From an uncultured virus (IMG/VR IMGVR_UViG_3300044911_003846) (taxonomy: Duplodnaviria; Heunggongvirae; Uroviricota; Caudoviricetes): a DNA stretch of 20,293 bases. Within the stretch, counting starts at the first letter, position 1, and each line of letters opens with the position of its first letter. The stretch lies in the IMG/VR virus record IMGVR_UViG_3300044911_003846. One strand, 5' to 3'. A program made the position numbers and the translations under genes. Below, piece after piece: positions 13,254-18,162 of the stretch. A model generated the notes under the pieces. It had not been told where the DNA came from. It did no database searches and worked only from the letters and a program-made list of their open reading frames with translations.

Positions 13254-13490
13254 TCAGCCCTTATCCTTTTTCTCGTACTCTTCACGAGTCATCCATTTCT
13301 GTTCGCCCCAACGCTTCAACGACTTTTGGCCCTCGGTACGCTCGCCTTTGTAACCACCACCACGTCGCTTATAGGCCTGCGCCAGAAGCTGTGCCTTGCG
13401 GGCTGACCATTGACCCGGCTTGCCACCTTTAGATCCCGCTTTGATCTGGGCTTTAAGACGCTCGCGTAGTTCTGGTTTTGTATATGCCAT
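13254..13490 (-). CDS. DUF5872-type basic protein, N-terminal half only (78 aa)
   Basis: YTKPELRERLK..IKAGSKGGKPGQWSARKAQLLAQAYKRRGGGY...QKSLKRWGEQKW signature. Confidence 0.8.
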   Translation of the reverse strand: MAYTKPELRERLKAQIKAGSKGGKPGQWSARKAQLLAQAYKRRGGGYKGERTEGQKSLKRWGEQKWMTREEYEKKDKG

Positions 13491-13771
13491 CAGAACTGAT
13501 TTTGAATCGGCCTTTTATTAAGAATAACAGGCGGAATGCTGTCACTGTAACTGCGACTAACCTCTCTCATGTAAGCAGGATTATTCATTTGGTAACGTGG
13601 ATCGTCGGTGCCGTTATATGCAACGACGTAACCGCATTTGCTTTCAGATTCCCGACGAACCTCATTAAATGGATCGCTAAACCCAGCGGTTTGCAGGCTG
13701 TAATCCTGATACATATTTTGATAGGTTACCGGAAATCCCTGAGAATAACCGGGAACAGCAGCGAATCTCAT
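13490..13771 (-). CDS. Hypothetical protein (93 aa)
   Basis: Stop/start coupled to both neighbours. Confidence 0.7.
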   Translation of the reverse strand: MRFAAVPGYSQGFPVTYQNMYQDYSLQTAGFSDPFNEVRRESESKCGYVVAYNGTDDPRYQMNNPAYMREVSRSYSDSIPPVILNKRPIQNQF

Positions 13772-14406
13772 TACGTTAAGTAGTTAGGCGTTTGTGAGAA
13801 CGCTTGGGTGAGCATCCCGACCGGGTCAATCATTGAGCGAACCTCTGGTTCTACTCCAAGAGATTGCTGAAGGTAAGAACTTAAGAAACTTTCCGGAGTG
13901 GTTGCCTTTTTACGGCCACCAACAATGATATAAGTATCGGCCGGAGCGATCTGAGGTTGAACCATTGGAGAAGCCTCAGTCTGCTTACCACCCTTGGTAT
14001 GAAGAAGACGAATCTCGTATGGAGTGCCCTGTGGGTCGGTGGTTTTAATCGTTCCATATCCCTTTCCCGGAGTAAATGTACCCGGTCCTTCCCAGGCTAG
14101 TGGGGTGCCTCCAGCGATCCCATAATCCTGCCCCATGTGTTGGGTGGAAGCCCCCTTGGTTGGTGCAACACGCTGTCCAAAAGGAGAAGTAATGGTGTAG
14201 CTTGGGCTCCACTCCTCTCCTTTCTGCTGCCAAAGAGGCTTCCGTTCTTTTCCGACTTTTAATCTCGTTAACAGAGAACGGATCGTACCGGGATCAACAT
14301 ACTTCCCATCTTTTAAAACACGGACATCAAGATGAGGCCCGGTCGTAGGAAATACATCTTGTCCGGCCGGTGTCACATATCCGACATCAGTTAACGAGTT
14401 TGCCAT
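13771..14406 (-). CDS. M23-family peptidase-like protein, circularly permuted
   Basis: TTGPHLDVRVLKDGKYVDP precedes ITSPFGQR...HMGQD...GTP...GYG...LLH, the reverse of the canonical M23 motif order. Confidence 0.8.
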   Translation of the reverse strand: MANSLTDVGYVTPAGQDVFPTTGPHLDVRVLKDGKYVDPGTIRSLLTRLKVGKERKPLWQQKGEEWSPSYTITSPFGQRVAPTKGASTQHMGQDYGIAGGTPLAWEGPGTFTPGKGYGTIKTTDPQGTPYEIRLLHTKGGKQTEASPMVQPQIAPADTYIIVGGRKKATTPESFLSSYLQQSLGVEPEVRSMIDPVGMLTQAFSQTPNYLT

Positions 14407-14408
14407 TA

Positions 14409-15059
14409 TCAGGACCCCAGATAATTAGGTGTCTGCGAAAAAGCAGCAGTTAGCATCGCTGCAGGGTCAAGACTCGATTGCACTTTCGGGGCTTTACCAC
14501 CAGCGATGTTGCGCATGATGAAATCGTCTAAATAGCTGCTTGGTTCGACCTGTGGTTCAGTATCACCAAAAATGATAAAAGTCCTACCACGAGCAGCGGT
14601 CTCTTGCGATGGACTTGGCTGACGACCCTGAAGAGCCTCCGTAAAACTAAACTGATCAGGACCAATAATTTTTTGAACATACCGGTTGGTTTCGGCGTAC
14701 TTCTTACTGGCCTCAACGGCTCCGGGTCCAGCATTGTAAGCGCGTAGACCTTTTTCATAAGCAGCCCTGAGTTGCATTGGGTCACTAACCTGACCTGGTT
14801 GTTTACCACCAAGGTAGGTTTTGATGTAACCCGCCATATTCTTGGCAGCAGCATCTAATGCGGCAACGGGATCATCCGGATTAACACCCCAACCCTTGGC
14901 GGTTGCAGGCATAATCTGAGCAATTCCACGGGCGCCAGCAGAAGAAATAGCCTTCGGATTAAAGCCAGATTCGGCTTGAATTTGGCGCTCAAATACTTGA
15001 GGTAAAAGCCCATATTTTTGGGCTTTTTGACGGGCAATCTCGCGATAGTCGGTAGGCAT
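14409..15059 (-). CDS. Soluble lytic transglycosylase (SLT domain, about 216 aa)
   Basis: QAESGFNPKAISSAGARGIAQIMPATA and AYNAGPG motifs. Likely start is ATG 15059 (MPTDY), not 15218, which overlaps the upstream gene. Confidence 0.92.
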   Translation of the reverse strand: MPTDYREIARQKAQKYGLLPQVFERQIQAESGFNPKAISSAGARGIAQIMPATAKGWGVNPDDPVAALDAAAKNMAGYIKTYLGGKQPGQVSDPMQLRAAYEKGLRAYNAGPGAVEASKKYAETNRYVQKIIGPDQFSFTEALQGRQPSPSQETAARGRTFIIFGDTEPQVEPSSYLDDFIMRNIAGGKAPKVQSSLDPAAMLTAAFSQTPNYLGS

Positions 15060-15081
15060 ACGTATGGCTGAGTACGTGGCG

Positions 15082-15561
15082 TTAGCGGAAATCGGTTGAA
15101 AGCATAAGCCGAGTACCGACAGCAACGTCGGCAGGGCCAGGGAGCGCTTGAATGAATTCAGCGCCTTCTCGGTTGAACCGATACCGAGCTTGCTCGGGAT
15201 TTCGGTAATTGGGGACATACAGATGTAGGGCTAATCGATCCGTCTCGTATAAATAAATCGCCGTCCAAGTTTTCAGCGTGTCTCTGAAATCAGAGGTCGC
15301 AATCGTACGATCAACGTCACCGGCTATGCTCTCAATACGACTACGTGGGACGGTATTATTATTCACGCTGCCAGTCATGTCAGTGCGCTTTTCAGCCTCG
15401 TCGCACCGACCGATCTGTTCGACAATTTTCGAATACCAGAACGAATCTTGGATGTTGTTGACAGCTTCCTCTAGACGCGCTTGGTCACCAGCCGGGACAG
15501 ACGTCAGGTTATAACCCAGGTGCCAGCGGACTTTGGACTTAAGGAAGGTATCGAGTTGCAT
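15082..15561 (-). CDS. Putative head-tail adaptor / head completion protein (159 aa)
   Basis: Helical protein beginning KSKVRWHLGY, located downstream of the capsid genes. Function inferred from position. Confidence 0.55.
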   Translation of the reverse strand: MQLDTFLKSKVRWHLGYNLTSVPAGDQARLEEAVNNIQDSFWYSKIVEQIGRCDEAEKRTDMTGSVNNNTVPRSRIESIAGDVDRTIATSDFRDTLKTWTAIYLYETDRLALHLYVPNYRNPEQARYRFNREGAEFIQALPGPADVAVGTRLMLSTDFR

Positions 15562-15632: not shown

Positions 15633-16073
15633 TTACTCGACGCGAACTAAATTCTCTTTAAAAATTTCATCCCAATCAACACGTTTGATGCCCTTCAATT
15701 GCTCCAATCTTTGGAAACGTTCGCCAGGCATCGACATTTGAAGGTCTTTGATATCTCGCGCTGTTTTGAGACCAACACCAGGGAGCGCATCCGCAATCTG
15801 TCGGGCACTAGCGGTGTTGATATTCATCCGCGTATCTAACGGGAAGGTTTCCTTTTTCGTCGGAATCGCCGGGTTCACGCCCTCTGACGCAAGTTGTGCG
15901 GTCAAGCGCTCTTCGGTCTTGATCTGCTCAGTGGTCGCATCCAGGTGCGGAACCAGATCAGATTCATCGATGTAAAGAACTTCATCTTGGGAATCGATGC
16001 ACATGACGATCCCATCGCCATGCTTCGCAATCATTTCCACCAAACCGCCGGTTACACGGTATTGATACAGCAT
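15633..16073 (-). CDS. Helix-hairpin-helix (ComEA/HHH_3-like) DNA-binding protein (146 aa)
   Basis: MNINTASARQIADALPGVGLKTARDI...F..LEQLKGIK is the ComEA-type HhH signature. Confidence 0.85.
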   Translation of the reverse strand: MLYQYRVTGGLVEMIAKHGDGIVMCIDSQDEVLYIDESDLVPHLDATTEQIKTEERLTAQLASEGVNPAIPTKKETFPLDTRMNINTASARQIADALPGVGLKTARDIKDLQMSMPGERFQRLEQLKGIKRVDWDEIFKENLVRVE

Positions 16074-17016: not shown

Positions 17017-18162
17017 TCACTCAGTAATGGTAAAGGCACAGGTCACGAAGTCCTTGTTCAGGTTCGCGAAACCGGCGTACAGCTGCCAAATCAGGATGAT
17101 GAAGCGGCTGAAGTCATCGTTGTTGTTGATCAGAACTTGAGCGTTCGGACCACCGATGCCCACACCCACAGCCTGAGGACCGAAGAACAGGGCAGGAGGA
17201 GTGTCGTGAGAAACAGAGCCGTCGCCGTCGTTGATGTCAACGGTGATGGACTTGCTGGGGAAGTTGGTGGATTCGAAGAACCGCACACCTTCAAACACAA
17301 AGCCGGAAGGCATCACGGGTTCGCCAGCCACGAACTGAGCTTGGCCAAACTGACCACCACCATAGATGGCGGCGTTAGGAGCCATGGCGCCCATCAGCGG
17401 GTTGGGAACGCCAGCGCCAGGATAGCGAGCCACTTCACGGAAGCCCTGGTCAGCACGCAGGTCCTTCATGAAGGAAGGATCAGCAATACAACGGTAGTAG
17501 CCGTCGGCGAACACAGGCACGTTGCGCTTGCGGAGGCTCTTCACAACGTTCAGAAGGTCGGTCTTAACGTTGAACTTGAAGCGCTCAGAAGCGTACTCGG
17601 TGGCGGTATAGGTAGCCAGAGTGGTCGAACCAGTCTTGGCGTGGTTGTTCGGATAGTAGTAACCACCCTGGGTGTCGGAGGACTGACCACGGGATTCGGC
17701 CTTGAACAGTTCGTCCAGGAACACGCGGTCGCGCCAGCGGCGGTAGTCATCCAGCAGGGTCAGCGAACCGATGGACTGGTGGAACATGTTGAGGTTCCCG
17801 GTGTCCAGCAGCAGACGCTGAGCGGTCATCAGAGTCTCGCGAGCAATCTTGAAGGTGCTCGGGAGGTTGGCATTGTTCGGGTCAGCAGGACCGGTGTACT
17901 CACGGAGAGACACCAGCACCTTGTCCTTCACGATGGACCGGCTGTTAGCAGTACCGATGGTTTGATCCTGGGTACGCTCACGGTTGGTCTTCGTGCCGGG
18001 GTTACCCCAGAAGCGGTAACGATCCAGCTGAACGGTCTGACCAGGCTGTTTGGTGAAGTCGTGGACGACCACAGGCTCGCAAGCCATTTCCACGATATAA
18101 GCCGGATGGGGGCGGTACAGCTCCGCACCCAACAGCTTGGGAAAGTCGTTATCAATAAACAT
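17017..18162 (-). CDS. Major capsid protein (HK97 fold, 381 aa)
   Basis: Size and position after the scaffold; DFTKQPGQTVQLDRY E-loop-like motif and G.FEGVRFFESTN...FFGPQAVG...DDFSR...W C-terminal pattern; strong codon bias. Confidence 0.88.
   Translation of the reverse strand: MFIDNDFPKLLGAELYRPHPAYIVEMACEPVVVHDFTKQPGQTVQLDRYRFWGNPGTKTNRERTQDQTIGTANSRSIVKDKVLVSLREYTGPADPNNANLPSTFKIARETLMTAQRLLLDTGNLNMFHQSIGSLTLLDDYRRWRDRVFLDELFKAESRGQSSDTQGGYYYPNNHAKTGSTTLATYTATEYASERFKFNVKTDLLNVVKSLRKRNVPVFADGYYRCIADPSFMKDLRADQGFREVARYPGAGVPNPLMGAMAPNAAIYGGGQFGQAQFVAGEPVMPSGFVFEGVRFFESTNFPSKSITVDINDGDGSVSHDTPPALFFGPQAVGVGIGGPNAQVLINNNDDFSRFIILIWQLYAGFANLNKDFVTCAFTITE

What the first reader, a model, noticed from the sequence alone, without database searches (positions are those of the whole stretch)
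13771..14590. Two unrelated cell-wall hydrolases share a C-terminal tag: candidate virion loading/ejection signal
Seen: the SLT ends RTFIIFGDTEPQVEPSSYLDDFIMRNIAGGKAPKVQSSLDPAAMLTAAFSQTPNYLGS. The M23-like protein ends DTYIIVGGRKKATTPESFLSSYLQQSLGVEPEVRSMIDPVGMLTQAFSQTPNYLT. The shared pattern of about 55 aa is T(F/Y)II.G......P.S(Y/F)L..(F/Y)...V.S.(L/I)DP..MLT.AFSQTPNYL, each following a Q/P-rich linker. The DNA has diverged, so conservation is at the protein level. Inference: a modular address that docks a glycan-cleaving and a peptide-cleaving enzyme on the same partner (portal, core or tail) or hetero-oligomerises them into a two-enzyme wall-drilling unit for genome entry. I know no named domain for it.
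Basis: partly seen in the sequence, partly recalled or inferred. Interest (0 to 1): 0.85.

Follow-up and report, generated by a model that had tools for sequence, protein, structure and literature searches.

The report
Matched docking tails on phage wall-cutters
Two cell-wall-cutting enzymes of an uncultured lake cyanophage end in the same short tail, which stays in place while the enzyme part is swapped, so it looks like a portable address label whose partner is still unknown.

Summary
The SLT protein and the M23-like protein end in the same ~55-residue tail (BLASTP E 3e-13), which follows a disordered P/Q/A-rich linker and matches no Pfam, PHROG or PDB entry.

The window is an S-EIV1-like cyanophage structural module. 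In relatives the tail is always C-terminal, on exactly two proteins per genome:
- 83 of 102 sources carry two tail-bearing ORFs and none carries three.
- A 90%-complete 77.6-kb relative has two matches in the whole genome.

The enzyme part is exchangeable. Five glycosidase-type domains and two LAS-type peptidase domains occur, and 9 of the 10 combinations are seen among 64 distinct pairs.

The two tails of one genome match each other better than tails of other genomes (29 non-redundant genomes, 0 of 10,000 permutations). Shared residues mostly use different codons, 100 of 168. The matching is therefore kept at protein level.

Best reading: a portable docking tag that takes one glycan-cutter and one peptide-cutter to a common co-evolving partner, or to each other, probably for loading into the virion. 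Virion association and the partner are not shown. The tail-tail complex prediction gave no verdict.

The parts
14412..14588 (-). C-terminal tail of the SLT protein (59 aa, GRTFIIFGD...QTPNYLGS). It has three blocks: a T(F/Y)II-G strand, an (S/D)(Y/F)L..(F/Y) helix, and DP..MLT.AF.QTPNYL.
   Evidence: Present in the orthologous slot of related loci.
13774..13941 (-). C-terminal tail of the M23-like protein (56 aa, ADTYIIVGG...QTPNYLT).
   Evidence: AF2 pLDDT 43-57, with short helices at residues 174-182 and 195-204.
13942..13986 (-). Disordered P/Q/A-rich linker of the M23-like protein (KQTEASPMVQPQIAP).
   Evidence: pLDDT below 50 over residues 147-166. Length and sequence vary in alignment A3.
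13987..14406 (-). Catalytic domain of the M23-like (LAS-type) peptidase, residues 1-140. It looks circularly permuted: the TGPHLD strand comes first and HxxxD (H90..D94) follows.
   Evidence: pLDDT above 90. PDB phmmer E 0.017 to M23 entries 3slu/6muk. VIA-align Z 3-4.2 to LytM, lysostaphin and EnvC. Residues H25, D27, H90, D94 and H136 are invariant in 30 sequences.
14409..15059 (-). SLT lytic transglycosylase gene as it is most likely translated (216 aa from M54, plus stop). The listed ORF runs on to 15218.
   Evidence: Pfam SLT 68.3 bits against a cut-off of 21.3, at residues 62-177 of the 269-aa ORF, which is 14688-15035. Start site.
14589..14636 (-). P/Q/S-rich linker of the SLT protein (QGRQPSPSQETAAR).
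   Evidence: Sequence. Variable among loci.
15082..15561 (-). Upstream gene in phrog_29158, a possible head-tail adaptor. The lysin gene starts 22 nt after its stop.
   Evidence: PHROG E 2.5e-58. Nearest named Atlas cluster is the PhiTE adaptor at 0.91, a lead only. 57.9% identical to its S-EIVl homologue.
13254..13490 (-). Small basic DUF5872-like protein (78 aa). One database protein (P0130) joins its first 49 residues to an M23-type tail.
   Evidence: 45 of 49 residues identical. No such fusion among the best 80 viral loci.
17017..18162 (-). Major head protein, which sets the context: the two lysin genes lie between head and tail genes.
   Evidence: phrog_1357 E 6e-17. 69.2% identical to S-EIVl.

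Best explanation
The ~55-residue tail is a portable protein-protein docking tag. In S-EIV1-like cyanophages two gene slots of the head-neck module each hold 'catalytic domain, floppy linker, tail'. One slot carries a glycan-cleaving domain and the other a LAS-type peptidase.

Recombination at the linker exchanges the catalytic domain and leaves the tail. Selection keeps the two tails of a genome matched. This implies that both are read by the same fast-evolving binding site, either on a third phage protein or on each other.

The most likely purpose is to load one glycan-cutter and one peptide-cutter together into the particle, so that the thick cyanobacterial wall can be opened at infection.

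Shown: modularity, two copies per genome, protein-level co-variation, disorder of the free tail.

Inferred: that the tail binds something, that the enzymes are virion-borne, and the entry role.
For: Tail shared in the window: E 3e-13.

Distribution of the tail:
- In 102 sources, 83 have two adjacent tail-bearing ORFs, 12 have one and none has three. The 12 are cut contigs or tails below threshold. Many loci are re-fetches of the same contigs, leaving 55-64 distinct pairs.
- The 77.6-kb relative G002 has exactly 2 matches at E<=1.
- A profile of 24 tails against 1.84 billion representatives gives only 17 hits at E<=0.001. All clear ones are C-terminal on short lysin-like proteins or on fragments.

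Cargo exchange:
- Glycosidase types: SLT PF01464, SLT_3 PF18896, a weak SLT-like type, a phrog_90 lambda-lysozyme-like type and a phrog_12490-like type.
- The M23-like domain is replaced by a hedgehog/DD-peptidase-like LAS domain. Foldseek gives probability 0.9-0.95 to ShhN/IhhN and 0.82 to 1lbu, with invariant H/D/H motifs.
- L110 carries the LAS domain on a tail almost identical to the M23 tails of L068-L070.
- 9 of 10 combinations occur among 64 distinct pairs.

Co-variation:
- Own-pair score 93.7 against 62.3 +/- 3.2 in 29 non-redundant genomes, 0 of 10,000 permutations. The own partner ranks first in 11 and in the top three in 20.
- The two tail distance matrices correlate at 0.52, and at 0.415 after removing the catalytic domain that lies between them (0 of 999 permutations).
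- Divergent lineages have other tail 'flavours', again matched within the genome. This holds even where the two genes are not adjacent, in L112, L127, L130 and L133.
- It is not recent gene conversion: 100 of 168 shared residues use different codons.

Context pointing to the virion:
- The genes sit between the head protein and the tail genes and are tightly coupled.
- The best PHROG for the SLT domain is 'internal virion protein with endolysin domain'. PDB hits include T7 gp16 and a tape measure protein.
- G002 has a separate tail-less lysozyme+Peptidase_C39_2 gene just after an 84-aa hydrophobic holin-like gene.
Against: - There is no direct evidence that either enzyme is in virions. I could not read the S-EIV1 paper.
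- No partner was found. Every neighbouring structural protein examined is far less divergent than the tails (0.085-0.31 against about 0.55), and none co-varies with the tails beyond the general tree signal.
- The matching is uneven. In the L047/L050-L054 group the two tails are only loosely alike, and the own partner ranks 11th-19th in 5 of the 29 genomes.
- In S-EIVl itself the shared stretch is short and weak (E 0.01).
- SLT domains of this kind also score as 'endolysin' (phrog_669).
- Old gene conversion followed by synonymous drift cannot be excluded.
Confidence: 0.5

Rival explanations
1. The two tails bind each other, as a strand plus helical hairpin from each chain. They join the glycosidase and the peptidase into one two-enzyme lysin, comparable to the two domains of phi29 gp13 or to multimeric endolysins. 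This could hold in the virion or in lysis.
For: - Within-genome matching with no equally variable third protein nearby.
- The tails are the fastest-evolving part of the locus, as expected of a self-contained specificity pair.
- The free tail is predicted disordered.
- There are always exactly two bearers, one of each enzyme class.
Against: - A heterodimer does not require the two partners to stay alike in sequence. Likeness fits a shared receptor or a symmetric mixed oligomer better.
- No experimental or computed support was obtained.
Confidence: 0.2
2. The tail directs both enzymes to a host envelope structure, acting as a small unconventional wall- or membrane-binding region. The pair acts as endolysins, or acts from outside, and host variation drives the tail flavours.
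For: - Fast, host-range-like divergence of the tails compared with structural genes.
- Modular swapping of catalytic domains on a constant C-terminal part is the classic pattern of endolysins with binding domains.
- PHROG 'endolysin' hits for several cargo domains.
Against: - No Pfam wall-binding family matches.
- The tail is acidic to neutral and predicted unfolded.
- The candidate lysis-cassette lysozyme of G002 lacks the tail.
- The genes lie in the head-neck block, not beside the holin-like gene.
Confidence: 0.15
3. The tail is a regulatory or processing element: a pro-peptide that keeps the enzymes inactive in the cytoplasm, or a tag read by a phage protease, chaperone or release factor. 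It would be removed or masked before the enzymes act.
For: A C-terminal position after a flexible linker and shared recognition by one factor would also give two matched tails.
Against: - Pfam and PHROGs recognise no prohead protease or chaperone in the window or in G002.
- The AF2 models do not dock the tail onto its own catalytic domain.
Confidence: 0.1
4. The likeness is only a remnant of an old tandem duplication or of domain shuffling, and has no function of its own.
For: The two genes are adjacent in most genomes.
Against: - Synonymous sites are scrambled while the residues are kept.
- The tail survives repeated replacement of the catalytic domain.
- Matching persists where the genes are not adjacent.
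Confidence: 0.03

Closest known systems
Encapsulin cargo-loading (targeting) peptides
   Same: A short C-terminal peptide behind a flexible linker, shared by unrelated cargo enzymes and sufficient as an address. The shell has the same HK97 fold family as phage capsids. Source: abstract of PMC7925596 seen in the listing; the rest is recalled.
   Different: Encapsulin peptides are about 10-20 residues with other motifs. Here the tail is about 55 residues in three blocks, sits on exactly two proteins, comes in genome-specific flavours, and has no demonstrated receptor.
T7 gp16 and other internal virion or tape-measure proteins with an SLT domain
   Same: An SLT-type transglycosylase carried in the particle to open the wall at entry. 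The window's SLT domain hits T7 gp16 (6yt5, 7eyb, E about 8e-4), a tape measure protein (9b45, E 1.2e-5) and phrog_342.
   Different: Those enzymes are domains of very large structural proteins. Here the enzyme is a free protein of about 216 aa that would need the tail to be incorporated.
phi29 gp13 tail-knob protein (lysozyme-like plus M23/LytM domain in one chain)
   Same: A glycan-cutter paired with a LAS peptidase for wall penetration. The gp13 structure 3csq appears among the fold matches of the M23-like model (Z 2.6, rank 36).
   Different: In gp13 the two activities are fused. Here they are two polypeptides with matched tails. The function of gp13 is recalled, not tested here.
T4 capsid targeting sequence of internal proteins
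   Same: A short portable peptide that loads otherwise unrelated proteins into the head (recalled).
   Different: The T4 signal is N-terminal, about 10 residues long, and is cut off by the prohead protease. Here the tag is C-terminal and no protease is recognisable.
Modular and multimeric endolysins (shared binding domains; PlyC; LysIME-EF1-type C-terminal oligomerisation)
   Same: Catalytic domains are exchanged on a constant C-terminal module, and C-terminal parts can assemble several chains into one lysin. Source: abstract of PMC7098653 in the listing; the rest is recalled.
   Different: Those modules are folded wall-binding domains with Pfam families, found in phages of Gram-positive hosts and in lysis cassettes. 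This tail is unfolded on its own, matches no family and lies in the head-neck gene block.

Membership tests
Transglycosylase SLT (PF01464), for the upstream protein | Match to the family model above the curated cut-off | tested here: met
   68.3 bits against a cut-off of 21.3, E 5.5e-19, residues 62-177.
Transglycosylase SLT (PF01464) | Catalytic Glu in the E-S motif at the start of the domain | tested here: met
   QIQAESGFNP is present in the window protein and in all type-A relatives. Which residue is catalytic is recalled.
Peptidase M23 (PF01551), for the downstream protein | Match to the family model | tested here: not met
   No PF01551 hit at E<=1. NCBIfam MepM E 0.17.
Peptidase M23 | HxxxD zinc motif | tested here: met
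   H90-M-G-Q-D94, invariant in 30 sequences. It aligns to the motif of 3slu/6muk.
Peptidase M23 | C-terminal HxH motif in the usual order | tested here: not met
   No HxH follows LLH136. A TGPH25-L-D27 strand that aligns to the HxH strand of 3slu lies at the N-terminus. This suggests a circular permutation with Asp in place of the second His. That reading is an inference.
Peptidase M23 | LytM fold | tested here: inconclusive
   VIA-align: many M23/LytM chains at Z 3.0-4.2 with 74-90 residues aligned over model residues 41-145. Foldseek: no match at E<=0.001.
Known cell-wall-binding domains (any Pfam family on the tail) | Family match within the last ~60 residues | tested here: not met
   Pfam scan at E<=1 finds nothing in either tail. 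The PDB sequence searches find nothing there either.
Cargo-loading or targeting peptide (functional class, encapsulin-like) | C-terminal, behind a flexible linker, shared by unrelated cargo domains | tested here: met
Cargo-loading or targeting peptide | Binds a defined site on the shell or another particle protein and is needed for incorporation | not testable with these tools
   This needs virion proteomics or binding assays.
LAS peptidase of hedgehog/DD-peptidase type (the alternative cargo in L110 and P0132) | Fold and H...D...HxH metal ligands | tested here: inconclusive
   Foldseek gives probability 0.9-0.95, about 103 columns and 23-25% identity to ShhN/IhhN/DhhN, and 0.82 to 1lbu, but E is only about 0.1. 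H38, H44, D51, H99, H102 and H104 are invariant in 17 sequences. No Pfam, PHROG, NCBIfam or PDB sequence hit.

The most novel reading that the evidence does not exclude
S-EIV1-like cyanophages have a cargo-loading system of their own. A genome-specific C-terminal peptide, read by a co-evolving receptor in the head or neck (or by its twin), decides which free enzymes are packed and ejected. The flavours would keep co-infecting relatives from stealing each other's cargo. The tag would then be a natural handle for packing any protein into a tailed-phage particle.
Probability: 0.3. Interest if true: 0.8.

Novelty: new variant of a known kind. Interest (0 to 1): 0.62.

Why it matters
How free, non-structural enzymes get into tailed-phage particles is known for only a few model phages. 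No shared C-terminal tag on a pair of wall-cutting enzymes turned up in my searches (which were lexical only).

This lineage offers a natural experiment:
- dozens of genomes;
- five glycosidase types and two peptidase types;
- several tail flavours, always matched within a genome.

If the tag is a loading or pairing signal, it gives three things:
- a testable rule for how cyanophages breach a thick, highly cross-linked wall;
- a specificity code that can be read from sequence;
- a possible tool for packing chosen proteins into phage particles.

If it turns out to be a wall-binding tail, it is still a new, very small targeting module for lysins of Gram-negative-type hosts.

Tried and rejected
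- Complex prediction of the two tails (alignments A5 + A4, 62 residues each): 'no answer', scores 0.01 and 0.02 against a mark of 0.32, controls not run. This is no evidence either way.
- Foldseek against the PDB gave no hit at E<=0.001 for either model. The M23-like fold appeared only with VIA-align at low Z.
- A signal peptide on the SLT protein was rejected. The first 53 codons of the 269-aa ORF look like a Sec signal. But they are the +1 frame of the conserved end of the upstream gene. That gene's third positions vary as freely there (0.398) as elsewhere (0.371-0.377). Every relative has a Met just after the upstream stop.
- Search for a partner by synteny found nothing. The genes downstream of the peptidase are a mosaic (MRFAAVPGY-, MRRLGSFNR-, DUF5872- and EndoVII-type) and do not follow tail flavour.
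- Search for a partner by divergence and Mantel correlation found no neighbour standing out.
- The nearest held record, G001, has no tail match. It is a 20-kb fragment.
- P0130, the DUF5872-tail fusion: no such fusion among the best 80 of at least 598 viral stretches. It may be a rare variant or an assembly chimera.
- P0140: no relative in 185,579 prokaryote genomes.
- The S-EIV1 paper (PMC4542036) is not held. I therefore do not know its particle shape or any proteomics.
- The window's own assembly is not held.

Full report
**What is there**

All genes in the window lie on the minus strand and form a phage structural module. In order they are:
- the C-terminal part of a large virion protein;
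- the major head protein (17017-18162);
- a 272-aa protein;
- a helix-hairpin-helix protein;
- a phrog_29158 protein (15082-15561);
- the two wall hydrolases;
- several small proteins;
- tail, spike and fibre genes.

The only named relative in 50,697 phage records is Synechococcus phage S-EIVl. Identities are 69% for the head protein, 58% for phrog_29158 and 51% for the peptidase. The window is therefore an uncultured S-EIV1-like cyanophage.

- The two proteins end as quoted.
- BLASTP aligns their last ~100 residues with E 3e-13 and nothing else.
- The upstream protein is an SLT transglycosylase (Pfam 68.3 bits).
- The downstream one has no Pfam hit. It does have the HxxxD motif, a weak PDB sequence match to M23 peptidases (E 0.017), a confident AF2 domain at residues 1-140, and low-Z fold matches dominated by LytM/M23 chains.
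- Its TGPHLD strand, which in normal M23 enzymes closes the domain, comes first. This suggests a circular permutation.
- The tails match no Pfam, PHROG or PDB entry. In the models they are low-confidence, with two short helices behind a disordered linker.

**Start of the SLT gene**

The listed 269-aa ORF begins with what looks like a signal peptide, but those 53 codons overlap the end of the upstream gene.
- In 50 distinct relatives, the upstream gene's third codon positions differ as often in the overlap (0.398 per pair) as outside it (0.371-0.377). Its first and second positions are conserved.
- Every relative has a Met right after the upstream stop.
- The gene therefore most likely starts at 15059, 22 nt after that stop, and there is no export signal.

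**The tail is lineage-wide and always comes in twos**

- Two scans of viral contigs gave 100 loci; many are re-fetches of the same contigs.
- With a tail profile, 83 of 102 sources have two adjacent tail-bearing ORFs, 12 have one and none has three. The 12 are cut contigs or tails below threshold. Seven have none at E<0.001.
- Those seven, and S-EIVl, carry other tail flavours that again resemble each other within the genome.
- A 77.6-kb, 90%-complete relative has exactly two matches.
- A profile search of 1.84 billion representatives found only 17 proteins at E<=0.001, so the tail is confined to this group.

**The catalytic part is interchangeable**

- The upstream slot holds SLT, SLT_3, a weak SLT-like type, a lambda-lysozyme-like type (phrog_90) or a phrog_12490-like type.
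- The downstream slot holds the M23-like domain or a second domain with invariant H/D/H motifs. Its model resembles hedgehog N-domains and the Streptomyces DD-peptidase, the other branch of the LAS zinc peptidases.
- L110 carries that second domain on a tail nearly identical to the M23 tails of L068-L070.
- Among 64 distinct adjacent pairs, 9 of the 10 possible combinations occur. Each is one glycosidase type with one peptidase type.

**The two tails of a genome are matched**

- In 55 distinct genomes, the own pair scores 91.6 against 65.6 for foreign pairs.
- In 29 non-redundant genomes it scores 93.7 against 62.3 +/- 3.2, reached by 0 of 10,000 permutations.
- Lineage-specific states are shared. 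Examples are LMQAINQTPNYF in L074, FNPTALLTQAIFQ in L046, and YNIY...AFN in L076.
- 100 of 168 shared residues use different codons, so this is not recent DNA copying.
- The tail distance matrices correlate with each other (0.52) more than with the catalytic domain lying between them (0.42). The partial correlation is 0.415, reached by 0 of 999 permutations.
- In genomes with the S-EIV1 gene order the two enzymes lie about 2 kb apart. There the best match of the peptidase tail is again the C-terminus of the lysozyme in L112, L127, L130 and L133. In seven other loci it was weak or out of range. In S-EIVl itself it is weak (E 0.01).
- The matching is not perfect: the L047/L050-L054 group has rather unlike tails.

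**What it most likely does**

A conserved, transferable, unfolded C-terminal piece on exactly two proteins, kept matched by selection, is best read as a docking tag.

Circumstantial points favouring a role in the particle:
- The genes lie between head and tail genes.
- The SLT domain resembles virion-borne ones.
- The complete relative has a separate tail-less lysozyme+C39-peptidase gene next to a small hydrophobic holin-like gene, which is the more ordinary lysis pair.

Against a confident claim:
- There are no proteomic data.
- No partner was found.
- The tails are 2-6 times more divergent than every neighbouring structural protein, adaptor included.

That last point fits direct tail-tail pairing or a variable partner elsewhere as well as it fits a shared receptor. 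The one complex prediction gave no verdict.

**Verdict**

The 'modular address' reading is supported. 'Virion loading' and the identity of the partner remain inference. I found no description of this in four lexical literature searches. The S-EIV1 paper could not be read.

Noticed in passing
window 15060-15218 (-): The first 53 codons of the SLT ORF mimic a Sec signal peptide (KR, hydrophobic core, ANA). They are the unconstrained +1 frame of the upstream gene's conserved end, so automatic gene callers are likely to predict a false secreted lysin here.
   Followed up: yes
window 13987-14406 (-): The M23-like domain appears circularly permuted. The TGPHLD strand, which is the HxH strand of normal M23 enzymes with Asp replacing the second His, lies at the N-terminus, ahead of HxxxD. 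The same order is seen in S-EIVl and in all 30 aligned relatives.
   Followed up: partly
L001 (KJ410740.1) record 60859-61983: The S-EIVl homologue of the major head protein (69% identical over 378 aa) lies under two 'hypothetical protein' features. In the table these sit on opposite strands, so the head gene seems mis-annotated in the record.
   Followed up: no
P0140 (database protein, 391 aa): This protein has a lipoprotein-like start and an S/T-rich end. It carries two and a half tandem copies of tail blocks 2 and 3 (EFLRSY...SLDPVGLLNTAI) and an RTIIIVGE stretch. It scores 38 bits against at most 7.9 bits for 500 shuffles. Its origin is unknown, and it has no relative in the prokaryote genome set.
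   Followed up: partly
P0130 (database protein); window 13254-13490: One protein joins the first ~50 residues of the DUF5872-like small basic protein to an M23-type tail. This would be a non-enzyme cargo, but it is a single case and could be a chimera.
   Followed up: partly
G002: L106:10651-11904(-) and L106:11942-12196(-); L106:2299-2955(-): The complete relative has a 417-aa Phage_lysozyme+Peptidase_C39_2 protein directly after an 84-aa protein with hydrophobic segments (a likely holin-endolysin pair). It also has a second PF00959 lysozyme. That makes four muralytic genes in one 78-kb phage.
   Followed up: partly
L034:2939-3559, L038:4677-5294, L097:3201-3854; G002 L107:2919-3524: In some relatives a 201-aa Cys-rich Endonuclease VII (PF02945) gene sits right after the peptidase gene, in place of the 93-aa and DUF5872 genes. 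It looks like a homing-endonuclease insertion at this joint.
   Followed up: no
loci L046, L057, L060, L076-L080, L082-L092, L096, L100: A family of ~100-aa proteins (MRRLGSFNR...RRMAG...AELR.P) alternates or co-occurs with the window's 93-aa MRFAAVPGY protein just downstream of the peptidase. Its function is unknown, and it does not follow tail flavour.
   Followed up: partly
window 15633-16073 (-): A helix-hairpin-helix (ComEA-like HHH_3, below the Pfam cut-off) protein is conserved between the head genes and the adaptor-like gene, in S-EIVl too. It may be a DNA-binding head or ejection protein.
   Followed up: no
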